64,000 bases of DNA from Candidatus Doudnabacteria bacterium (GTDB taxonomy: Bacteria; Patescibacteriota; Doudnabacteria; UBA920; O2-02-FULL-48-8): assembly GCA_019659055.1 (NCBI GenBank), contig JAIFWV010000002.1, positions 26,047 to 90,046 on the forward strand. The letters are read 5' to 3'. The position numbers and the translations under genes are program-made. Position 1 is the first letter of the stretch. The number at the start of each line of letters is the position of its first letter. The notes under the pieces were generated by a model that worked only from the letters and a program-made list of their open reading frames with translations, was not told where the DNA came from and ran no database searches. Shown piece by piece: positions 46,399 through 60,554 of the stretch.

Positions 46399-48528
46399 CT
46401 ATAAAGCGCCGATCTCGAGAGTCTTGTCATGTTTGTTGGCGCGTACAAGATCTTTGAGATTCAATCCCATTGAGCGGAAAATATTCATATTGAGAATCGG
46501 GAAGCGCTTACCTTGGCTTATGAGCGAAACAGTCTGCCCATCCTGGACTATGCTCCCGTCTGGATGCGCCCGATCAATGCTGTCAATTACTGCGCCAGTG
46601 TCGACGATGGTTAGATCATTTTTTACTAAATTAGAAAACTTATATCCCAAACCAAGGAAAACCTTGTCAGATACAAATCCATATTTTTTGGCTTTGTACA
46701 CCAGGTACACGGTGCGGCCATCATTTGAATCCAAGACCAACGATCCATCCTGGAAAGTATTTGCCCCGAGAACCTTACCTGGATTTTCTGTCACAGGCAA
46801 GATAGTTACTGCTGGCGAACCGCCGCCGCCGGAAGGCGCTGGAGTTGGTTCTGGATCGGGTTTGGGAGCTGGAACTATATGTTCAGGATTCTCGGGAGTG
46901 AATAATTGGTCAACGCTCCCGTCCCCATCATAATCGGCAGCCATTTCGGTCAGGCCATCGGCCAGAATTATAGATCCCTGGAATTTTTCGGTCACCGGAA
47001 TATTTTCATAAATTTGAAAAAGCTGGGCATCTGATCCGCTCACATCATATTCTTTAAAAGTAAAATTACCTTCTCCTGTGCCTTGCAGTTTAACGGTATA
47101 TGTTTGGCCTTGATCCTGTGGGACGTACACATATTTATGGTCACCAAAAATTTCCATATCCGATCCAGGAATACCGTTCTCGACGCTCCCATTCTCTGCT
47201 AGACCTGTCCGATGTCCCTCGGCATCCGTTACCTCGATATTGACAGGACTAAGTATGTGCCACCACTTACCTTTCAAATCACAGACTTTTTGATTCTCAT
47301 TAAAAGCATCCTCGTCGAGCACGGCATTGCCGGTATCCAGTTGGCTCCCAGAAATGAGGTTTACTATATGCTGGCGGATGCCATCTGCGGACAAAAGCTG
47401 GCCGTGGCTGGTTTTGAGCGCCCAATATAAATGATTGGCTGGCACAATAATGCCGCCGGAGCTATCTGTCGGTACAGTGCCGTCCCCGGTGATCAATTTG
47501 GGAAAATCAAAAGCCGGTTCAGAAAATTTACTAATCGTTTCTGTAATACCACCCAATGTGGCCGTAGCACAGCCATTGATCGTGTACAGGTCAGCATATG
47601 TTTTGTAGGGTACCGAAAAAGAATCGAGAGTCCCATGGTAAACTTCACTGGCGGCCAACGCTTTGTCATTAATCAAATTTAGTTTTTTAAATTCAGCAAT
47701 TGCCTGGTCATAAGTTGGCTGGCTATCCACTTCCTCAGGTGTACTCGCAAGCGGGTTATGGATCTTGAGAAATGATCCCTCGTAATAATTCCGGGTTGGT
47801 GCAAGATCGTAAAGAACCGGCATATTCTGGGCCAGCTTTTTCATTTCCTTGGGATTTAATCCCGGCACATCGAAATTATCGCCCTCGATAATGACTTTGT
47901 AGGCTTTGGGTGCTCCCGAGTTGGGAACTCCAACCATAACCGTCTTTCCCAGTTTGCTATTGAGTTTATTTGTATATAGGTATTGCTTTACTAGAAGACC
48001 TCCGGTGGAGTGAGCGACGATATTTACCTTGCCAGCCGCCTTGCCACTTTCGGTCTGAGTAAGAATGTAATCTATCTGGCCTTGGAAAGCATTGAGATTT
48101 ACCAAATTACCTTCGGCATCCACACCCGAAATCCCATATCTCCAATCATATGGAAACGTAAATAGATCTTGACCCTCTAGATATCCCTGCTTCACAAACT
48201 CATTTATAAGACCATCAGTGTAATCAAGACCGTGTCCAAGGAATGTTGTTTTTCTAATTACTTCGCTTGTTAAGATATCGTTGTCGGTAGGTTGAAGATC
48301 TTCACTAAACGACAATGGATCCATAAAACTATCGGGTAAAATAGTCATTTTGGAGTTAGCCCAGAGCAGGTCATCTCCTTTTTTTAAGTTTGTTCCTAGA
48401 ACACCCGGTACAATTAAGACTGGAGTTTTTAAACTGGTCATTGACCCTTGAGCTCGCGGGTACCAAAAAGGAGCTATCAAAAATATTATAATTCCAATCG
48501 TAAGAGATTTAAACCCAGTCAAAAACAT
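46399..48528 (-). CDS. secreted alpha/beta-hydrolase (lipase/esterase-like, GxSxG = AHSTGG) with large C-terminal beta-rich extension
   Basis: 709 aa; N-terminal signal/TM, VAHSTGGLLVKQYL nucleophile elbow, Pro/Gly-rich linker PTPAPSGGGGSP then extra domain. Confidence 0.65.
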   Translation of the reverse strand: MFLTGFKSLTIGIIIFLIAPFWYPRAQGSMTSLKTPVLIVPGVLGTNLKKGDDLLWANSKMTILPDSFMDPLSFSEDLQPTDNDILTSEVIRKTTFLGHGLDYTDGLINEFVKQGYLEGQDLFTFPYDWRYGISGVDAEGNLVNLNAFQGQIDYILTQTESGKAAGKVNIVAHSTGGLLVKQYLYTNKLNSKLGKTVMVGVPNSGAPKAYKVIIEGDNFDVPGLNPKEMKKLAQNMPVLYDLAPTRNYYEGSFLKIHNPLASTPEEVDSQPTYDQAIAEFKKLNLINDKALAASEVYHGTLDSFSVPYKTYADLYTINGCATATLGGITETISKFSEPAFDFPKLITGDGTVPTDSSGGIIVPANHLYWALKTSHGQLLSADGIRQHIVNLISGSQLDTGNAVLDEDAFNENQKVCDLKGKWWHILSPVNIEVTDAEGHRTGLAENGSVENGIPGSDMEIFGDHKYVYVPQDQGQTYTVKLQGTGEGNFTFKEYDVSGSDAQLFQIYENIPVTEKFQGSIILADGLTEMAADYDGDGSVDQLFTPENPEHIVPAPKPDPEPTPAPSGGGGSPAVTILPVTENPGKVLGANTFQDGSLVLDSNDGRTVYLVYKAKKYGFVSDKVFLGLGYKFSNLVKNDLTIVDTGAVIDSIDRAHPDGSIVQDGQTVSLISQGKRFPILNMNIFRSMGLNLKDLVRANKHDKTLEIGAL

Positions 48529-48532
48529 AAAT

Positions 48533-48829
48533 TTAGAGAATAAAATCGGCGCGAACCCATGAATAAGCTAAATAAAAGTATATTGATAACAAAATGATCA
48601 GAAATAAAGAAAGTGCTTGCCAAAAATATCTAATTTTTATATTTTCGGAATTACGAGATCCAAAGAAAATAAGCGCGCTGAAAATTATAGCGACTATAAT
48701 CAACCCAAGTTTAATAGCATTTCCATAGCCCGAAATTCCGGCACCTGCATGAGGGTAAACGTAGTTATATACCGGTATCAGCGCGAGTGCTAAAACAGCG
48801 ATAAGCATCAAGTATAAATTCTTTTTCAT
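48533..48829 (-). CDS. small membrane protein (98 aa)
   Basis: three TM helices; promoter TTGACAAACGTAAGCAAT..TATTTT upstream. Confidence 0.5.
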   Translation of the reverse strand: MKKNLYLMLIAVLALALIPVYNYVYPHAGAGISGYGNAIKLGLIIVAIIFSALIFFGSRNSENIKIRYFWQALSLFLIILLSIYFYLAYSWVRADFIL

Positions 48830-48924
48830 ATTTGTATTTTAATTAATTGCAAAATATACCTATTGCTTACGTTTGTCAAACTTTCAAGAAATTTAAAAAA
48901 ATAGCCTTGACTATTATCGTAAGG

Positions 48925-49254
48925 CTAGCCGATGCGGTTTCTAATTGCTATAGCCATATAAATTAACAATAGACAATTGAAGCTTAATAAAAAAATAAAC
49001 CAACGGAACCACTTTACTCCAACGAAGTAAGCTTTCATATTATTTGCAATAAAGATCAGCCCAATCAGCTGGATGACCAAAACCACAAACGTCATCAAAA
49101 TATGCCCACTATCAGTAATTCGATTGACCCTTAACAAATTATGGTTTGGATTTAGTAACTGATAATCATAACTTGAAACAGGGCCCCAGATAAGCTCGGG
49201 TATCAAAAACATCGCTAAGCCTATTGCAAACCAGATCTTTTGTTTTGTTGTCAT
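48925..49254 (-). CDS. small membrane protein (109 aa)
   Basis: three TM helices; ArsR-site palindrome copy 3 and TTGACAAGCCTGAGCAAT motif upstream. Confidence 0.5.
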   Translation of the reverse strand: MTTKQKIWFAIGLAMFLIPELIWGPVSSYDYQLLNPNHNLLRVNRITDSGHILMTFVVLVIQLIGLIFIANNMKAYFVGVKWFRWFIFLLSFNCLLLIYMAIAIRNRIG

Positions 49255-49321
49255 ACGTTAATTTAATTGATTATAAAGTAATAGCGATTGCTCAGGCTTG
49301 TCAAATTTTTAGTCTTATAGG

Positions 49322-55797: not shown

Positions 55798-56124
55798 CTA
55801 AACCTTCTTGTAGATTACACTTTGGCCTGTCTTACCTATCTGCACGAGCTTGCTGCGCTTTTCCAATTCATCCAAATAACTCTCAGCGCTCGTATTAGAC
55901 ACATGTAGCAGATGCTCTACTTTGTCGTTGGTAATCTCTTCCCCGGGATTAAAAATCGCCAGGATCTGGTCCATGTGTTTCTGCCGCTCCTCTGCCCGAC
56001 GTTCATTGAGCTCATTGAATTCCTGTTTCTTCTCGAGCCTCACCTGCCCACCCTTCCGCCCAATCACAAATCCAACAACCCCTCCGACCACAAACCCTAT
56101 AAACATATAAATTAACGTGTTCAT
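55798..56124 (-). CDS. hypothetical membrane-anchored protein with possible winged-helix C-terminus
   Basis: N-terminal TM (IGFVVGGVVGFVIG), charged coiled region, C-terminal wHTH-like segment. Confidence 0.4.
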   Translation of the reverse strand: MNTLIYMFIGFVVGGVVGFVIGRKGGQVRLEKKQEFNELNERRAEERQKHMDQILAIFNPGEEITNDKVEHLLHVSNTSAESYLDELEKRSKLVQIGKTGQSVIYKKV

Positions 56125-56280
56125 ATTTTTTTAAAAAATAGCGGCTGGTGCCGCGTGTTTCCAATATAAAACTAAAAATTACCCCTGTCAAATCCTTTCA
56201 GGATTTCGGAATTACGCAACCACTTGACGACTTTAATTTTTTAACCTGTATGAAAGAATCCTCAGAAGTGGTTAGTTCCT

Positions 56281-58743
56281 TTATTTAAGCAATTCATATC
56301 GGAAAAGTTTAGGCTGTATTGCAGTTTCATAATATTTGGCTACTGTTGTCCTTAAACCAATTATTGCCGTATTTAACTGAGGATTATCGTAAATTATTTC
56401 ATCGTTTTCATTTTTATGATATGTATTAAGTTCGGTATCAATTTGGTAAGTACCATATTTATATTCTGGGTTATATCCTTTTGTTCTTTTAGCTTTCTTT
56501 AGAACATCTTTAAACAAGTATAATAATTCCTCTTCTTCTTTTGTGAGTTTATAAGCTTTCAAATAGTTACTCGCTATCGTTGAGCTATCAAAACAGAGTT
56601 CGTTCCTATAAAATCTCCCATCGCTCCCATGAAAGCTTCGACAATGATTACGTCGACTTAAACAGGTGAATATAAAACAGCTTTTCAGAAAATCCTTATC
56701 CTTCAGGTAACGATCTTTTCCATCAGCGGTAGTAAAAAATAAATCACGTTCAAACCAATTTTTTTGTGGATAAAGTTTGGCGGCAAAAAGCGGCAATTTA
56801 TCTATGAAATTGTCAGTGCGTAAATAGAAGCCATTTTTTCTAGCATTTAATGTTGTCCTCACCAATGCTTGCTTTGGAGCTCCCAATGTATAGCCAACCA
56901 AATATTCGTACCCTAGAATATTTTCATTGAATACTTTTTCAGTACTTGTTGCCCCCGTTCTCTCTGCTTCATTTCCACTACTATCACAGTAGATACCATC
57001 TAGGCTGTCATCATTGAATTTCCGCTTATCAAAGTAAAACTCGTTGAAAGTGGTGTGAACTTTTTTCACCAAGATATCTTTTACAAATAAGGTACGATCA
57101 TCTTCTTGTTGCGGAGTATTTTTCGTGTCTATGTCAAAAGCTTTAAGCGACAGCTCTTCTTTACTTTCTGGCAAATTTTGCCACAAAATACAACTAATTG
57201 CAGACTTAGAAGCATGGAAATGTTCTCGATTAAATAAAAACCCTTCTATAAATTGATGTTCCCCCAGGCCGTGTGATTTCCAATATTTTATCGGGGAGAA
57301 AAGAATGAAAGCATCATGGGGTTTTGTCAAATAATATTTCCAACCAGACCAGATAAATAAATTGGCAATATCCTTAGACGGGATCATGCCTTTTATTTTC
57401 GAAGTAAAAAACTTTTTAAATTCGTTCGCAATAAAACTATCTTTTTTAACATCTCGAGTTAAGCCTTCCAGTCTAACCTTATCAGCACTCGTATCACTAT
57501 ATGGTGGATTTTCATATAAAATAATATTTGTCTTTGGATCTTTGATATACCTTAAAAGTGTTGCGATACTGTCACTGTATTCTGAAGTCATTCCTAGTGA
57601 CTTTTGGCCTGTGACAAATTCTAAACTGAGTGCATCGCCTCCTTCCACCAAAGCTTTTCTACTGCTAACTTCTTGTGGTGGTGGAATAATTAGTTTGACT
57701 CGATCTCCAATTCTTTCATTCAAAACTACCCACTCTTTCAATTCATAAGTATTTACTATTGTATGGGATAACTCATTATCAAAAATGTAGTCGCGTATTT
57801 TTATTGTTGTCTCGTATTTCTTTATTTCCTTAAGAGTGATTTCGTTTATTTTCTTACTTGCCCTTCCAAGAATAATATCAATACCAATACCTGTACTAGA
57901 AATGTACTCTTTCTGAAAGCTTTCATCGATATATTTACTAAGCTCACCAATTGTGATATCGTCTACTTTTTTATCAGTCAGAAACTCTTCTAGATTTCCG
58001 GTTCCTGCACAACGATCAAGAATTATATAATCATGGCCTGTGGGTATCCTTTTAATAGCTTTTCGAACTAATCCCGTAGCTTTGAGACAATATGCAGGTG
58101 GAGTATAAAAAGCTCCAAGTTCTTTTTTATGTTGCTTATCATTAAGCAAGTCCATAATATATTTAAAATCTGGCTCATCTCCTTTCCATGGATATATAAA
58201 ATGTACGAAATGCTTAGGCTCACGGAATTCCTTAAACAGTTTAATTTTGCTGGCATCCGGATTTTCGCGATAAAATCTGTTAGCCCAGCCAACAACGTCG
58301 AATACATCAATGTGAACTTTCGTATAATCTTCTCTCTCTAAAATTTCTGTAATTCTTCTTAGCCCTAATAATTTACTGTAATCAATCTTTTCGGGTTGAA
58401 TTTTAGTGTTAAATTCAGTATTATTTCTGCTAGCTGCCCCAGCGTATATTTTTTCTATATCTTTTAAAAAGTCACCTGAACTAAAAAGGTAAGCATTCTC
58501 CTCATTTAGCGCGACCAACAATATTTGAGCTGGGATAGGATCACCCTTTATTCTGCGGTGACTTAAATATTTGATGGCTTGAAGCAGGACTCTATTAATA
58601 TCTGGTATAGTTAATTTAAACTCAAAAAGAGTACCTTTATATACACCATCGGTATTATTTGTAAGCTCGATATCGGTACTAATTTTCAAATCAGTAAAAA
58701 ATCTGACTTGGCCTTCACGTTCTGATAAGAATTTATTACTCAT
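56281..58743 (-). CDS. MmeI-like Type IIL/IIG restriction-modification enzyme (N-terminal PD-ExK nuclease + gamma-class N6-adenine DNA methyltransferase + C-terminal target-recognition region)
   Basis: 820 aa in A+T-rich DNA; D-x8-EFK near N-terminus; motif X GAFYTPPAY, motif I ILDRCAGTGN, motif IV ENPPYSD in gamma-class order. Confidence 0.65.
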   Translation of the reverse strand: MSNKFLSEREGQVRFFTDLKISTDIELTNNTDGVYKGTLFEFKLTIPDINRVLLQAIKYLSHRRIKGDPIPAQILLVALNEENAYLFSSGDFLKDIEKIYAGAASRNNTEFNTKIQPEKIDYSKLLGLRRITEILEREDYTKVHIDVFDVVGWANRFYRENPDASKIKLFKEFREPKHFVHFIYPWKGDEPDFKYIMDLLNDKQHKKELGAFYTPPAYCLKATGLVRKAIKRIPTGHDYIILDRCAGTGNLEEFLTDKKVDDITIGELSKYIDESFQKEYISSTGIGIDIILGRASKKINEITLKEIKKYETTIKIRDYIFDNELSHTIVNTYELKEWVVLNERIGDRVKLIIPPPQEVSSRKALVEGGDALSLEFVTGQKSLGMTSEYSDSIATLLRYIKDPKTNIILYENPPYSDTSADKVRLEGLTRDVKKDSFIANEFKKFFTSKIKGMIPSKDIANLFIWSGWKYYLTKPHDAFILFSPIKYWKSHGLGEHQFIEGFLFNREHFHASKSAISCILWQNLPESKEELSLKAFDIDTKNTPQQEDDRTLFVKDILVKKVHTTFNEFYFDKRKFNDDSLDGIYCDSSGNEAERTGATSTEKVFNENILGYEYLVGYTLGAPKQALVRTTLNARKNGFYLRTDNFIDKLPLFAAKLYPQKNWFERDLFFTTADGKDRYLKDKDFLKSCFIFTCLSRRNHCRSFHGSDGRFYRNELCFDSSTIASNYLKAYKLTKEEEELLYLFKDVLKKAKRTKGYNPEYKYGTYQIDTELNTYHKNENDEIIYDNPQLNTAIIGLRTTVAKYYETAIQPKLFRYELLK

Positions 58744-58900
58744 AGGATCTCATATTATTTAAAAGATATTCGGTATCCTAAGCATACCAAAAAGCCGCCT
58801 TTTTGGCGACTTCAGTGATTACGTAATAAAAAAGTACCTCAATTATTACACAGCTTGCTTCAAAAAGCAAAAAGTTCGTACTCCCTCTCAATGAACCAAA

Positions 58901-59362
58901 TTAAGCTTTATTTTTAGCTTCTTGGATAATAATATTTACTAAGTCATTCAGTAATATATATCCGTAAATAAAATTTAATAAAACTATTCCTGAGAATGGT
59001 AGTATATAATAATTTGATAATAATAATTCATTGCTTAATGTCTGTTTTATAAAAAAATTAATTAATAATAAATACAAAACAGTTATTAATATCAAATCAA
59101 GACCAAATTTAAACCTTTTCATCAAAGTGTGGAGTAAAGTCAGGCTTGGATTCTTGTTATCAATAGTTTTATACAGGTCAGATACATATTTTGACGTTAC
59201 AAAAATCGCTAGACTGGTAATATAAAACCCAAAAACAATCGAAAGAAAGATTATTACATTATCAACCACCTCTGTGTGTAACTTCATACCGCCATAAGTC
59301 CAGTATTGTAACAAACACATTATTAATAAAAATAGAACTACATAGATTTTCTTTTTATTCAT
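58901..59362 (-). CDS. hypothetical 4-TM membrane protein (153 aa), A+T-rich
   Basis: four hydrophobic helices; start overlaps upstream gene stop by 8 nt. Confidence 0.5.
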   Translation of the reverse strand: MNKKKIYVVLFLLIMCLLQYWTYGGMKLHTEVVDNVIIFLSIVFGFYITSLAIFVTSKYVSDLYKTIDNKNPSLTLLHTLMKRFKFGLDLILITVLYLLLINFFIKQTLSNELLLSNYYILPFSGIVLLNFIYGYILLNDLVNIIIQEAKNKA

Positions 59363-60167
59363 GAATTTTTTTGATTAATTCGGAGACCAATTCTTTATTA
59401 ATAAATTTTCCATTCTTTCTATTCATTGGTGCCAGCAATGTTATTTTACTAATTACTTCCTGAGTATTGAAAATGCTTTCAAAATCCTCTGAGGTGCGAC
59501 CTATCACCGTAATATTTTTATATTCTGTTTTATTTTTTATAATATCTTTCACTTTTTCATATAATTGTTTTCCGATCTTCTTCTTGTTTTTATAAACCAA
59601 CTTAATAATAGCCTCTGTCGCACCAAATCCAAAAATATCTTCCCTTAGTCTTGCAGGCAACCCTATGCTAGCGGAATTCAGTAAATCCGGTTCTACCGTA
59701 AAGCATATTTCTTTTATAGATTCTATCTTATCAATAAATTCGCGTTGAGCTATCAGAGGCTTGACGGCAATTTCCTTTTTTATTTTATCCTCAAGCCAGT
59801 TTATAAGAAAGCCCTTTTTTCTGAGATCTGAAATATAAATTCTAGAGGTCAGTAAGTCGACGAGCACATAAAATTGCTCATTTAATTCAACCTTGTCAAT
59901 TGATCTGGGATTGAGGCTCTCTTTGAGCTTAGAATCAATAACTTTCTCAGAATAAGGAAACTTATTACCTTCCTCAAAACAAAGTGCAATAAACCGTTCT
60001 GGAATATACTCCTTTTCAATTTTTTTAATATTGAGAAGATCTTCTCCGATTGTTTGCTTTTCAAAATTGGCTTCGTCGATAGCGGCAAAGTTAGCCAATT
60101 CGGGCTTTTTGCCACCGATTATTAGTTGAAAAATGGAAAATTGTATCTCTTTTAGATGCTTCTTCAT
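59355..60167 (-). CDS. hypothetical protein (270 aa), A+T-rich, no recognisable domain
   Basis: long ORF in ~30% GC DNA, Lys/Glu/Ile-rich; preceded by hairpin AAAGACGGC..GCCGTCTTT. Confidence 0.5.
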   Translation of the reverse strand: MKKHLKEIQFSIFQLIIGGKKPELANFAAIDEANFEKQTIGEDLLNIKKIEKEYIPERFIALCFEEGNKFPYSEKVIDSKLKESLNPRSIDKVELNEQFYVLVDLLTSRIYISDLRKKGFLINWLEDKIKKEIAVKPLIAQREFIDKIESIKEICFTVEPDLLNSASIGLPARLREDIFGFGATEAIIKLVYKNKKKIGKQLYEKVKDIIKNKTEYKNITVIGRTSEDFESIFNTQEVISKITLLAPMNRKNGKFINKELVSELIKKIHE

Positions 60168-60323
60168 GCCGTATTCTTAATAAAAAGACGGCAAAGAGCC
60201 GTCTTTTGTTTGATTCTATTATAAGACTCTAACAATAGCTTTGCAAGACCTTAGGATAAAATGATCTGCGGGTACAGCCATGGTCTATCAATAGGCAAAG
60301 ACACTTACGCCGCCTTTCTTAAT

Positions 60324-60554
60324 CTAACCTCGGGGAGGGTATGGGTCTTTCCCATAGGTCCACTCTGCCCTATACTGGCCATTTTGCCCTTGTATAAGGA
60401 TCTGTGAGAGTGCGCCTGCTGGAAATCGAGCCACATGTTGCTTAGCCAATTTTATGGCTTCGGCTTGCGTGGAGGTGATTTGCTCATAATTGCAATGTTC
60501 ACACCTAACTTTCCACTGAAAGCCATGTGAAAGAACATAGATCTTATTCCTCAT
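60324..60554 (-). CDS. DUF2188-family small protein
   Basis: 76 aa; HGFQWKV...TQAEAIKLAK...DPYPPRG C-terminal signature typical of DUF2188. Confidence 0.55.
   Translation of the reverse strand: MRNKIYVLSHGFQWKVRCEHCNYEQITSTQAEAIKLAKQHVARFPAGALSQILIQGQNGQYRAEWTYGKDPYPPRG

What the first reader, a model, noticed from the sequence alone, without database searches (positions are those of the whole stretch)
56281..60167. A+T-rich defence island: MmeI-like Type IIL RM enzyme plus an uncharacterised overlapping gene pair (270-aa protein + 4-TM membrane protein)
The block 56.2-60.2 kb is much more A+T-rich by eye than its flanks, the usual signature of acquired defence DNA. Its large gene has a D-x8-ExK nuclease motif followed by gamma-class methyltransferase motifs in order X (GAFYTPP), I (DRCAGTGN), IV (NPPY). 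That order and the 820-aa length fit single-chain RM enzymes of the MmeI family. Directly upstream in the same orientation, two ORFs overlap by 8 nt in operon-like fashion: a 270-aa protein with no recognisable domain and a 153-aa four-helix membrane protein. A cytoplasmic unknown protein paired with a small multi-TM partner next to an RM gene resembles the layout of abortive-infection or sensor/effector defence pairs. This pair could be a new defence module, or an accessory or regulatory part of the RM system.
Basis: partly seen in the sequence, partly recalled or inferred. Interest (0 to 1): 0.72.

Follow-up and report, generated by a model that had tools for sequence, protein, structure and literature searches.

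The report
Rex-like abortive pair beside solo restriction enzyme
The A+T-rich block holds two separately mobile anti-phage modules: a single-chain nuclease-methyltransferase from a large unnamed family, and a two-gene cassette whose soluble protein has the fold of phage lambda RexA, whose partner is a four-helix membrane protein, and which in other genomes is repeatedly wedged inside restriction-modification operons.

Summary
Region 56125-60210 has GC 0.329 against 0.469 for the window, the lowest 4-kb stretch. All three ORFs and all quoted motifs are present.

The 820-aa protein is a PD-(D/E)XK plus gamma-class N6-adenine DNA methyltransferase fusion. This is Type IIG/IIL architecture, but it matches no Pfam, NCBIfam or PADLOC model, so it is not a sequence-level MmeI-family member. 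Its family has more than 3,100 homologues, which occur as solo genes in varied sites and on small plasmids, almost never with the pair.

The 270-aa protein (A) and the 153-aa four-helix membrane protein (B) form a strictly conserved, overlapping cassette. A's family has 359 representative clusters and no annotation. A's AlphaFold model (pLDDT 92.8) matches only lambda RexA and RdgC strongly in the PDB. Neither A nor B shows sequence similarity to RexA or RexB.

Of about 25 distinct loci, 14 have restriction-modification genes within three genes of the pair, and 7 have type I hsd genes abutting it. The pair is more A+T-rich than its flanks in 19 of 19 other loci.

My best reading is a RexAB-type abortive-infection cassette that inserts into restriction-modification loci and sits here next to an independent Type IIG-like enzyme. 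It is a new variant of a known kind. All functions are inferred; nothing was tested experimentally.

The parts
56281..58743 (-). 820-aa single-chain protein: N-terminal PD-(D/E)XK-type motif (D32-x8-E41-x-K43), gamma-class N6-adenine DNA methyltransferase (motif X 210-215, motif I 243-249, motif IV 412-415), a variable segment at about 541-640 (candidate specificity region), and a conserved C-terminal domain. Type IIG/IIL-like; from an unannotated family.
   Evidence: ORF. Motif residues invariant in 30 homologues. More than 3,124 homologues, all 'hypothetical', none with a Pfam domain. No Pfam, NCBIfam, PADLOC or PDB-sequence match. All top Foldseek matches are DNA adenine methyltransferases or Type IIG/IIL/IIB/I enzymes. 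Conservation profile. Solo gene in other genomes and on plasmids.
58794..58810 (-). Terminator-like hairpin (GUCGCC-AAAAA-GGCGGC followed by UUUUU) in the 157-nt spacer between gene B and the 820-aa gene. It suggests separate transcription units.
   Evidence: Sequence. Fold of 58780-58830(-): -17.2 kcal/mol, z = -4.2, 0 of 200 shuffles as stable.
58901..59362 (-). Gene B: 153-aa protein with four predicted transmembrane helices and a near-invariant TM2 motif FLSIxFGFYITSLAIFVTS. Proposed RexB-like membrane effector.
   Evidence: ORF. Hydropathy. 22-sequence alignment with invariant S41, G45, F46, T49, S57, D68. It follows gene A in all 8 loci that were found by searching with A. No Pfam, PADLOC or PHROG match. 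No sequence similarity to lambda RexB.
59355..60167 (-). [quoted passage not shown] Beta-rich split globular domain (about 4-129 plus 230-269) with an inserted alpha/beta domain (about 133-225). Conserved loop motif N86-P-R88...E94. Proposed RexA-like DNA-binding sensor.
60183..60207 (-). Terminator-like hairpin with a U-run 15 nt upstream of gene A's ATG. It may end the DUF2188 transcript or lie in the A-B leader.
   Evidence: Consensus scan. Fold of 60175-60215(-): -15.0 kcal/mol, z = -6.1.
60218..60246 (-). Sigma-70-like promoter match TTGCAA-17 nt-TATAAT upstream of A-B. Consensus match only.
   Evidence: The number of promoter-like sites in the region is not above the shuffle expectation, so this is weak evidence.
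60324..60554 (-). Flanking gene outside the A+T-rich block (GC 0.468): 76-aa DUF2188 protein that matches the PADLOC phage-defence candidate PDC-S16.
   Evidence: Pfam DUF2188 E 6e-8. PADLOC PDC-S16 E 7e-13, full length. GC.
55798..56124 (-). Flanking gene outside the A+T-rich block (GC 0.465): 108-aa protein with an N-terminal TM helix and a C-terminal wHTH-like domain. A related domain ends the gene directly after B in L016/L017.
   Evidence: 48% identity over 62 aa to L017:3509-4207.

Best explanation
The A+T-rich block is horizontally acquired DNA made of two independent defence modules placed side by side.

**Module 1: the 820-aa protein.** It is a self-contained nuclease-methyltransferase of Type IIG/IIL design. 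An N-terminal PD-(D/E)XK nuclease would cut unmodified foreign DNA. A gamma-class N6-adenine methyltransferase in the same chain would mark host DNA. A variable segment at about 541-640 would set sequence specificity.

**Module 2: the overlapping A-B pair.** It is a RexAB-type abortive-infection cassette.
- A is a soluble protein with the RexA/RdgC DNA-clamp fold and probably forms a dimer. It would sense an infection-associated DNA or DNA-protein state.
- A would then activate B, a small four-helix inner-membrane protein. B would permeabilise or depolarise the membrane and stop growth of the infected cell.

**How the cassette behaves.** It is itself mobile and preferentially lands in, and is co-transcribed with, restriction-modification operons. 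There it would act as a second line of defence when restriction fails.

**Shown here:** the ORFs, motifs, composition, folds, strict A-B pairing, and neighbourhood statistics.

**Inferred:** nuclease and methyltransferase activity, DNA binding by A, the A-B interaction, membrane damage by B, and anti-phage function.
For: **820-aa protein**
- Catalytic-type residues are invariant across 30 homologues and kept at 31-35% identity in Limosilactobacillus plasmid homologues.
- All top Foldseek matches are DNA N6-adenine methyltransferases, including single-chain DrdV, BpuSI and MmeI.
- It is a solo gene with changing neighbours: AAA_15/21 ATPase, Mrr, HD, and a site inside the S10 operon. It also sits on a 9-kb mobilizable plasmid with no separate methyltransferase.
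- The gene is more A+T-rich than its flanks in 6 of 6 loci.
- The variable block at 541-640 lies between conserved domains.

**A-B pair**
- A's model has pLDDT 92.8.
- The only strong PDB matches by two methods are lambda RexA and RdgC, followed by IML3, CHL4 and CENP-L/N. That is exactly the fold group described for RexA in PMC11077077.
- The domain plan matches RexA's split globular domain plus inserted domain.
- B has four TM segments. The sizes (270 and 153 aa) and the soluble-then-membrane order mirror RexA (279 aa) and RexB (144 aa, four TM helices).
- B follows A in 8 of 8 loci found by searching with A. A precedes B in every locus found by searching with B where the contig allows, except L022.
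- The two genes overlap by 4-26 nt in 20 of 22 loci, and their divergence is correlated, r = 0.72.
- Restriction-modification genes lie within 3 genes in 14 of about 25 distinct loci. Type I hsd genes abut the pair in 7, for example HsdM-A-B-HsdS-HsdR in L021 and HsdS-A-B-HsdR in L032 and L043.
- Other neighbours include AbiEii, a reverse transcriptase, MazE/PIN, Fic, RhuM and an integrase.
- The pair's GC is below its flanks in 19 of 19 other loci, including when it sits inside hsd operons.

**Precedents**
- Genes embedded in type I restriction-modification operons are often defence systems (PMC11411939; preprint 10.1101/2024.01.29.577857).
Against: - There is no sequence-level link to RexA or RexB: hhalign E = 0.26 for both, and no hit to Pfam RexA or RexB, although the lambda proteins hit them at about 1e-97 and 1e-92.
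- Known Rex systems sit in prophage immunity regions. This family was not found in any phage collection.
- About 7 of 25 loci show no defence neighbours (for example L014, L045, L046).
- The 820-aa model is only moderate (pLDDT 63), and its nuclease-domain fold is poorly resolved.
- The 62-74% full-length identity across Patescibacteria lineages is unusually high for a restriction enzyme.
- PADLOC finds nothing for A, B or the 820-aa protein.
- No activity of any kind was tested.
Confidence: 0.6

Rival explanations
1. The A-B pair is functionally coupled to restriction-modification rather than merely sitting next to it. In this reading it guards the RM system. A would sense restriction-generated DNA ends, stalled restriction complexes, or phage anti-restriction activity, and would then trigger B. 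This resembles the way the PrrC anticodon nuclease is held latent by the EcoprrI type I enzyme.
For: - The operon packing with hsd genes is tight: gaps of 1-12 nt to HsdM, HsdS or HsdR in L021, L032, L030, L043 and L047.
- RM genes lie within 3 genes in 14 of about 25 loci, and the association spans the whole divergence range of family A.
- A has a DNA-clamp fold suited to sensing DNA states.
- PrrC is cited as almost exclusively embedded in type I RM systems.
Against: - The partner RM type varies without pattern: type I, II, IIG-like, III and IV.
- Several loci have no RM genes at all (L014, L045, L046).
- The pair's GC differs sharply from the surrounding hsd genes, which points to recent insertion rather than co-evolution.
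- In this window a terminator-like hairpin separates the pair from the 820-aa gene.
Confidence: 0.2
2. A is an RdgC-like modulator of recombination or DNA uptake that B tethers to the membrane. In this reading the pair is not an abortive-infection system. It would control what happens to incoming or restricted DNA, for example by limiting RecA-dependent recombination of fragments.
For: - RexA and RdgC share a non-specific DNA-binding fold (PMC11077077).
- One locus has a DprA-like fragment nearby (L017).
- Some loci have housekeeping neighbours.
Against: - No member hits the Pfam RdgC model in the 74-member scan.
- From established knowledge, RdgC is a stand-alone gene, whereas A is strictly paired with an overlapping 4-TM gene.
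- The cassette is compositionally foreign in 19 of 19 loci and patchily distributed, which is the behaviour of mobile defence cargo and not of a housekeeping gene.
- Its neighbours are enriched for RM, Abi and toxin-antitoxin genes.
Confidence: 0.1
3. A-B is an addiction-type (toxin-antitoxin-like) module. B would be the membrane toxin and A its regulator, and the pair would stabilise the mobile islands or RM operons it rides in. It would have no direct antiviral sensing role.
For: - The pair is small, overlapping and consistently foreign in composition.
- It is found beside other toxin-antitoxin pairs: a HEPN/MNT pair in L043, MazE/PIN in L044 and AbiEii in L019.
- Membrane-toxin modules are a common design (established knowledge).
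Against: - A is large (270 aa) and has a DNA-clamp fold, unlike typical antitoxins.
- The Rex-type architecture has two experimentally supported antiviral precedents.
- The boundary between a toxin-antitoxin module and an abortive-infection system is itself blurred, so this rival overlaps the main explanation.
Confidence: 0.07
4. The 820-aa protein is not an active restriction enzyme. It could be an orphan or regulatory DNA adenine methyltransferase, or another DNA-modifying enzyme, whose N-terminal D-x8-ExK region does not cut DNA. Its high conservation would then reflect a conserved epigenetic or housekeeping role in Patescibacteria.
For: - Full-length identity of 62-74% across several candidate phyla is unusual for restriction enzymes.
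- The top structural match is the orphan methyltransferase CamA.
- The N-terminal region is modelled with low confidence.
- No restriction-enzyme model in any library matches it.
Against: - D32, E41 and K43 are invariant and are retained in plasmid homologues of 31-35% identity.
- The predicted secondary-structure order around them, alpha-beta-beta-alpha-beta, fits a PD-(D/E)XK core.
- The gene is patchy, occupies variable sites, is more A+T-rich than its hosts, and occurs on small mobilizable plasmids next to an IS element or a relaxase. That is mobile defence behaviour, not housekeeping.
- It has a variable block at 541-640, as expected of a diversifying specificity region.
Confidence: 0.2

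Closest known systems
Phage lambda RexA/RexB exclusion system, and RexAB-type systems of actinophages (Sbash, CarolAnn, Toast) and of a Pseudomonas putida prophage (PP_5643/5644)
   Same: - A two-gene operon with the soluble gene first and the small membrane gene second.
- Similar sizes: 270 and 153 aa here, 279 and 144 aa in lambda.
- The membrane partner has four TM helices.
[quoted passage not shown]
   Different: - There is no detectable sequence similarity to RexA or RexB, and no Pfam RexA or RexB hit.
- The pair is not in prophage immunity regions and is absent from the phage collections searched.
- It is instead embedded in or beside restriction-modification operons and defence islands of Patescibacteria and other uncultured bacteria.
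- A-B overlap, implying translational coupling, is the rule.
RdgC (E. coli recombination-associated DNA-binding protein, PDB 2OWL)
   Different: No member of family A hits a Pfam RdgC model. From established knowledge, RdgC is a stand-alone chromosomal gene, whereas A is always coupled to a 4-TM partner and behaves as mobile cargo.
Defence genes embedded in type I restriction-modification operons (PrrC/EcoprrI, TgvAB of Vibrio cholerae VPI-2, the PADLOC 'guilt-by-embedding' candidates)
   Same: The genomic position is the same: inserted between hsdM, hsdS and hsdR with very short intergenic gaps (L021, L032, L043, L047, L030). Published work treats such embedded genes as likely defence systems.
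   Different: The proteins are unrelated. PrrC is an anticodon nuclease and TgvAB is GmrSD-like. No PADLOC v2.0.0 model matches A or B. A-B also occurs with type II, III, IV and IIG-like systems, and alone.
MmeI-family Type IIL and other single-chain Type IIG enzymes (MmeI 5HR4, DrdV 7LO5, BpuSI 3S1S)
   Same: - One polypeptide with an N-terminal D-x(n)-ExK nuclease motif.
- Gamma-class methyltransferase motifs in the order X, I, IV.
- A downstream variable region and a C-terminal domain.
- A solo gene with no partner methyltransferase.
- These enzymes are among the top structural matches.
   Different: - No sequence-level membership: there are no Pfam hits of any kind, including N6_Mtase, Eco57I and the MmeI-domain models, and no NCBIfam, PADLOC or PDB-sequence hits.
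- The structural match to MmeI is weak (rank 24, TM about 0.18).
- It is shorter than MmeI or DrdV (target lengths).
- It is unusually conserved across hosts.
Kiwa (KwaA four-TM protein plus KwaB DUF4868 protein)
   Same: It is a two-gene defence system that pairs a small multi-TM protein with a soluble protein of about 300 aa (resemblance recalled from established knowledge).
   Different: In Kiwa the membrane gene comes first, so the gene order is reversed. There is no PADLOC or Pfam (DUF4868) hit for A or B. A's fold matches RexA/RdgC instead.

Membership tests
Lambda RexAB family (sequence family) | The soluble component matches Pfam RexA (PF15969) | tested here: not met
   A and all 74 aligned family members give no RexA hit. 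Lambda RexA hits the model at 1e-97 as a positive control. hhalign of the family profile against lambda RexA gives E 0.26.
Lambda RexAB family (sequence family) | The membrane component matches Pfam RexB (PF15968) | tested here: not met
   B gives no RexB hit. Lambda RexB hits the model at 8.5e-92. hhalign of the 22-sequence B profile against RexB gives E 0.26.
RexAB-type systems (architecture and fold class, as applied to P. putida PP_5643/5644) | The soluble component has the RexA/RdgC fold | tested here: met
RexAB-type systems (architecture and fold class, as applied to P. putida PP_5643/5644) | An adjacent, co-oriented small inner-membrane partner with four TM helices | tested here: met
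   Four hydrophobic segments in B and its relatives. B lies directly downstream of A in 8 of 8 loci found by searching with A, and the two genes overlap in 20 of 22 loci.
RexAB-type systems (architecture and fold class, as applied to P. putida PP_5643/5644) | Located in a prophage, typically next to the cI-like repressor | tested here: not met
   No relatives in IMG/VR or INPHARED. The contexts are RM operons, defence islands or housekeeping genes.
RexAB-type systems (architecture and fold class, as applied to P. putida PP_5643/5644) | Phage exclusion through membrane depolarisation or permeabilisation on activation; the soluble component binds DNA and interacts with the membrane component | not testable with these tools
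   This needs phage challenge, membrane-potential or dye-uptake assays, EMSA and two-hybrid experiments.
MmeI-family Type IIL restriction-modification enzymes | Sequence membership (Pfam MmeI-domain models, or any RM methyltransferase model such as N6_Mtase or Eco57I) | tested here: not met
   Zero Pfam families at E<=1 for the 820-aa protein and for its plasmid homologue. Zero NCBIfam and PADLOC hits. The family profile against PDB sequences, which include MmeI, gives zero hits at E<=10.
MmeI-family Type IIL restriction-modification enzymes | An N-terminal PD-(D/E)XK nuclease motif followed in the same chain by gamma-class N6-adenine methyltransferase motifs X, I, IV | tested here: met
   D32-x8-E41-x-K43, GAFYTP 210-215, DRCAGTG 243-249 and NPPY 412-415. 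These are invariant in 30 homologues and kept in homologues of 31-35% identity. The methyltransferase fold is confirmed by Foldseek. This is evidence at motif and fold level only.
MmeI-family Type IIL restriction-modification enzymes | Whole-chain structural similarity to MmeI (5HR4) | tested here: inconclusive
   5hr4_J is at rank 24 with E 2.7e-4, probability 0.77 and TM 0.17-0.19. The query model is only pLDDT 63.
MmeI-family Type IIL restriction-modification enzymes | A self-sufficient solo gene with no separate methyltransferase or specificity subunit | tested here: met
   It is a solo gene in five chromosomal contexts and on a 9-kb plasmid that has no annotated methyltransferase.
MmeI-family Type IIL restriction-modification enzymes | Cleaves about 20 nt from an asymmetric site and methylates one strand only | not testable with these tools
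   This needs biochemistry and a SMRT methylome.
RdgC family | Sequence membership (Pfam RdgC model) | tested here: not met
   RdgC is not among the Pfam families hit by any of the 74 members at E<=0.01.
Kiwa (KwaAB) | KwaA/KwaB models (PADLOC) or DUF4868 (Pfam) | tested here: not met
   There are no such hits for A, B or the 74 family members.

The most novel reading that the evidence does not exclude
The A-B family would be a previously unrecognised, widespread branch of Rex-type abortive infection that has specialised as a guard of restriction-modification systems.

- A, the DNA-clamp-like protein, would read out a DNA state created when restriction is under way or is being subverted. Examples are cleaved ends, stalled translocating Hsd complexes, or the action of an anti-restriction protein.
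- A would then open the B channel.

This would give the long-unknown trigger of Rex-type systems a concrete, testable candidate. It would also show programmed membrane collapse in ultra-small Patescibacteria.
Probability: 0.2. Interest if true: 0.82.

Novelty: new variant of a known kind. Interest (0 to 1): 0.62.

Why it matters
**The Rex question.** RexAB is the oldest known phage-exclusion system, yet its trigger and mechanism remain unresolved (PMC11077077). Recognised relatives are few and are carried by prophages.
- This work finds a sequence-unrelated family with the same fold and architecture: 359 representative clusters at 50% identity.
- It lives in bacterial chromosomes and is repeatedly inserted inside type I and other restriction-modification operons.
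- That widens the known reach of Rex-type defence. It also points to a specific testable context for its trigger, namely DNA states produced during restriction.
- It adds an abortive-infection candidate to the defence repertoire of Patescibacteria.

**The 820-aa family.** It has more than 3,100 members, no model in Pfam, NCBIfam or PADLOC, and is annotated 'hypothetical' everywhere. It is probably a large unannotated class of single-chain restriction-modification enzymes. Current defence-annotation tools miss both modules.

Tried and rejected
**Sequence-library scans.** I ran Pfam, NCBIfam, PADLOC and PHROGs on all three proteins. Nothing useful came back for A, B or the 820-aa protein. The weak hits (C-5 DNA_methylase for A at E 0.003, TMEM70 for B) did not recur across family members, and I treated them as noise.

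**PDB sequence searches.** A single sequence and family profiles gave nothing for either protein.

**Word-indexed homologue search for A.**
- It found only one relative and only four with a family profile. This at first made A look like an orphan.
- The exhaustive HMMER search corrected this, finding 359 clusters.

**Scans for related loci.**
- The metagenome scan with the A alignments failed or found nothing, because the patterns were too degenerate.
- Switching to the invariant TM2 motif of B worked.
- Three scans of viral contigs found nothing.

**Ideas considered and rejected**
- That the pair is a specific accessory of the 820-aa enzyme. I rejected this because the two co-occur only in this window. 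In L001 the pair sits next to a remote homologue of the enzyme (hhalign probability 90.5%), and elsewhere next to unrelated systems.
- Kiwa, because the gene order is reversed and there are no model hits.
- That the 108-aa downstream gene is a third component. It shares only a wHTH domain with one other locus, which is too little evidence.
- Island-flanking direct repeats. Only short, terminator-like matches were found, and there is no tRNA or integrase at the borders.
- Structured RNAs in the region. Rfam at gathering threshold found none.

Full report
**1.

- 820 aa at 56281..58743(-)
- 153 aa at 58901..59362(-)
- 270 aa at 59355..60167(-), overlapping the 153-aa ORF by 8 nt

The window as a whole has GC 0.469. 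The block 56125-60210 has GC 0.329. It is the lowest 4-kb stretch in the 64 kb, about 3.7 SD below the mean of all 4-kb windows. The three genes have GC 0.340, 0.247 and 0.326. The genes on either side have GC 0.465 and 0.468.

The source is a Candidatus Doudnabacteria (Patescibacteria) metagenome-assembled genome. I found no tRNA, integrase or convincing flanking repeats at the borders.

**2. The 820-aa protein**

*Motifs and fold*
- All quoted motifs are present: D32-x8-E41-x-K43, GAFYTP 210-215, DRCAGTG 243-249 and NPPY 412-415.
- They are invariant in 30 homologues and survive in Limosilactobacillus plasmid homologues of 31-35% identity.
- An AlphaFold2 model of moderate quality (pLDDT 63) matches only DNA N6-adenine methyltransferases in the PDB: CamA, DrdV, BpuSI, MmeI, M.TaqI, M.BseCI, type I HsdM and BsaXI.
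- The predicted secondary structure around D32, E41 and K43 runs alpha-beta-beta-alpha-beta, which fits a PD-(D/E)XK core.

*No sequence-level family assignment*
- The protein matches no model in Pfam, NCBIfam or PADLOC, even at E<=1.
- It matches no PDB sequence, alone or as a family profile.
- So the Type IIG/IIL architecture is supported, but membership of the MmeI family is not.

*The family it does belong to*
- It has more than 3,124 homologues, and the best 120 are 62-74% identical over the full length. They come from Zambryski-, Gribaldo-, Buchanan- and Doudnabacteria, and all are annotated 'hypothetical'.
- In five other chromosomal contexts the gene is solo with different neighbours: AAA_15/21 ATPase plus HTH, Mrr, HD, and an insertion that splits the S10 ribosomal operon.
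- It also sits on a 9-kb mobilizable plasmid with no separate methyltransferase.
- It is more A+T-rich than its flanks in 6 of 6 loci.
- Conservation is uniform except at residues 421-460 and about 541-640. The latter is a plausible specificity region.

I read the 820-aa protein as a self-contained, mobile restriction-modification enzyme of an unnamed family. Its activity is inferred, not shown.

**3. The 270-aa (A) and 153-aa (B) pair is a conserved cassette**

*Finding the family*
- The word-indexed search found one relative of A.
- The exhaustive HMMER search found 359 representative clusters at E<=1e-3 and 226 at E<=1e-10, nearly all 260-285 aa.
- None has a consistent Pfam, PADLOC or PDB-sequence match. 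Source names are 'hypothetical protein', including one from a gammaproteobacterial mussel symbiont.

*Pairing of A and B*
- Probing metagenomes with B's invariant TM2 motif gave 24 loci.
- In these, A lies directly upstream of B wherever the contig allows. The one exception is L022.
- All 8 loci found by searching with A have a family-B gene directly downstream.
- The two genes overlap by 4-26 nt in 20 of 22 non-duplicate loci. Their divergence from the window copies is correlated, r = 0.72.
- B has four hydrophobic segments in all relatives checked.

**4. The fold of A**

With the 74-sequence alignment, AlphaFold2 gave a confident model (pLDDT 92.8, pTM 0.78).

I had predicted RexA from gene sizes and order before running the fold search (note). 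The searches gave:
- **Foldseek against 350,542 PDB chains:** only three matches at E<=1e-3. These are lambda RexA 8twq_B (2.7e-5), RdgC 2owl (1.6e-4) and RexA 8twq_A.

The domain plans also agree. RexA has a split globular domain (1-139 and 248-279) interrupted by a domain of four strands plus helices (143-234). A has a beta-rich 4-129, an inserted alpha/beta 133-225, and then 230-269.

Sequence-level links are absent:
- hhalign gives E 0.26 for A against RexA and for B against RexB.
- There are no Pfam RexA or RexB hits, although the lambda proteins hit those models at 1e-97 and 8.5e-92.

**5. Genomic context of the pair**

Of about 25 distinct loci with readable flanks, 14 have restriction-modification genes within three genes of the pair. 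In 7 of them type I hsd genes abut it.

| Locus | Arrangement |
|---|---|
| L021 | HsdM-A-B-HsdS-(249 aa)-HsdR |
| L032 | HsdS-A-B-HsdR |
| L043 | HsdM-(HEPN/MNT pair)-HsdS-A-B-HsdR |
| L030, L047, L029 | A-B-HsdR |
| L022 | B-HsdS |
| L016/L017 | D12 and N6_N4 methyltransferases-A-B |
| L018 | type III Mod/Res |
| L020 | reverse transcriptase plus DpnII R-M |
| L013 | Dam-GmrSD-PD-(D/E)XK-N6_N4 |
| L035 | N6_N4 methyltransferase-A-B |
| L001 | A-B, then a 793-aa remote homologue of the 820-aa protein (hhalign probability 90.5%) |

Other points about context:
- Other neighbours are AbiEii (L019) and an integrase, MazE/PIN, Fic and RhuM (L044).
- About seven loci show no defence genes (for example L014, L045, L046).
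- The pair has lower GC than its flanks in 19 of 19 other loci. This holds even inside hsd operons, where it is 0.24-0.30 against 0.40-0.44. It therefore behaves as a mobile cassette that inserts into restriction-modification operons.
- It was not found in any phage or plasmid collection.
- None of the pair-bearing loci other than the window carries the 820-aa family.

**6. Local organisation in the window**
- A stable terminator-like hairpin with a U-run lies in the 157-nt spacer between B and the 820-aa gene (-17.2 kcal/mol, z = -4.2).
- Another lies 15 nt upstream of A's start (-15.0 kcal/mol, z = -6.1).
- A TTGCAA-17-TATAAT match lies upstream of the second hairpin. This is weak evidence.
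- The arrangement fits two transcription units placed side by side.

**7. Interpretation**

My best-supported account is this. The island joins an independent Type IIG/IIL-like enzyme to a RexAB-type abortive-infection cassette. In the cassette a DNA-clamp-like sensor (A) controls a four-helix membrane effector (B). Published work shows that genes embedded in type I restriction-modification operons are frequently defence systems (PMC11411939; preprint 10.1101/2024.01.29.577857).

*What is shown:* the sequence features, the folds, the pairing and the neighbourhood statistics.

*What is inferred:* all biochemical activities and the antiviral role.

*Rivals I kept open:*
- functional coupling to restriction (a guard model);
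- an RdgC-like role in recombination or DNA uptake;
- an addiction module;
- for the 820-aa protein, an orphan methyltransferase.

**8. Novelty and score**
- Rex-type systems and Type IIG enzymes are both known kinds.
- Three things appear new. The first is a large, sequence-unrelated Rex-like family. The second is its chromosomal habitat embedded in restriction-modification operons, rather than in prophages. The third is its presence in Patescibacteria.
- Current annotation and defence-finding models miss both this family and the 820-aa family.
- I rate this a new variant of a known kind, with interest 0.62.
- The more novel reading, in which restriction-generated DNA states trigger the Rex-like sensor, gets probability about 0.2.

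Noticed in passing
window 60324..60554 (-): A 76-aa DUF2188 protein directly upstream of the island matches the PADLOC phage-defence candidate PDC-S16 over its full length (E 7e-13), and also phrog_3220. Its GC is host-like (0.468), so the A+T-rich block landed next to an existing candidate defence gene.
   Followed up: partly
window 55798..56124 (-); L017:3509-4207: The 108-aa gene just downstream of the 820-aa gene has an N-terminal TM helix and a C-terminal wHTH-like domain, with weak matches to Ren-like exclusion proteins and DUF977. That domain is 48% identical over 62 aa to the C-terminus of the gene directly after B in L016/L017. It could be an occasional third partner or regulator of the cassette.
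   Followed up: partly
window 60183..60246 (-): The promoter-like TTGCAA-17-TATAAT match lies upstream of the strong terminator-like hairpin that sits 15 nt before A's ATG. An A-B transcript starting there would carry the hairpin in its leader. This could be an attenuator, or simply the terminator of the upstream gene. I cannot explain it.
   Followed up: no
L008:7049-15805 (also L009): In another Patescibacteria genome the 820-aa family gene is part of an insertion between ribosomal protein genes S10 and L3. The insertion also carries a 23S_rRNA_IVP four-helix-bundle gene and a PD-(D/E)XK gene. It is a defence-like islet that splits the normally contiguous S10 operon.
   Followed up: no
window 56281..58743 (-), residues 262-313 and 689-717: The Patescibacteria clade of the 820-aa family has a helical insertion of about 50 aa between methyltransferase motifs I and IV that the Limosilactobacillus plasmid homologues lack. 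It also has invariant C689, C694, H700, C701 and C717, of which only C694 and C717 are kept in the plasmid homologues. This may be a clade-specific metal site.
   Followed up: partly
L022:161-1679: This is the only locus where a family-B membrane gene lacks an upstream A. An unrelated 333-aa protein with a predicted membrane or secreted character precedes it, and an HsdS-like gene follows. It may be a decayed cassette or one with an alternative partner.
   Followed up: partly
L026:1114-1958 and L037:179-979: Gene A is split into two ORFs (a frameshift or stop codon) upstream of an intact B in two metagenomic loci. These may be pseudogenised sensors or assembly errors.
   Followed up: no
window 48000..49300: The only other low-GC patch in the window (about 0.31-0.36) encodes two small multi-TM proteins (48533..48829 and 48925..49254, both on the - strand) next to a 709-aa LCAT-like lipase. 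It is unrelated to the island.
   Followed up: no
L043:5163-5755: The type I restriction-modification operon that hosts A-B on a 2.3-Mb contig also carries an embedded HEPN/MNT-type pair (NTase_sub_bind plus NTP_transf_2) between hsdM and hsdS. Two different cassettes are therefore embedded in one hsd operon.
   Followed up: no
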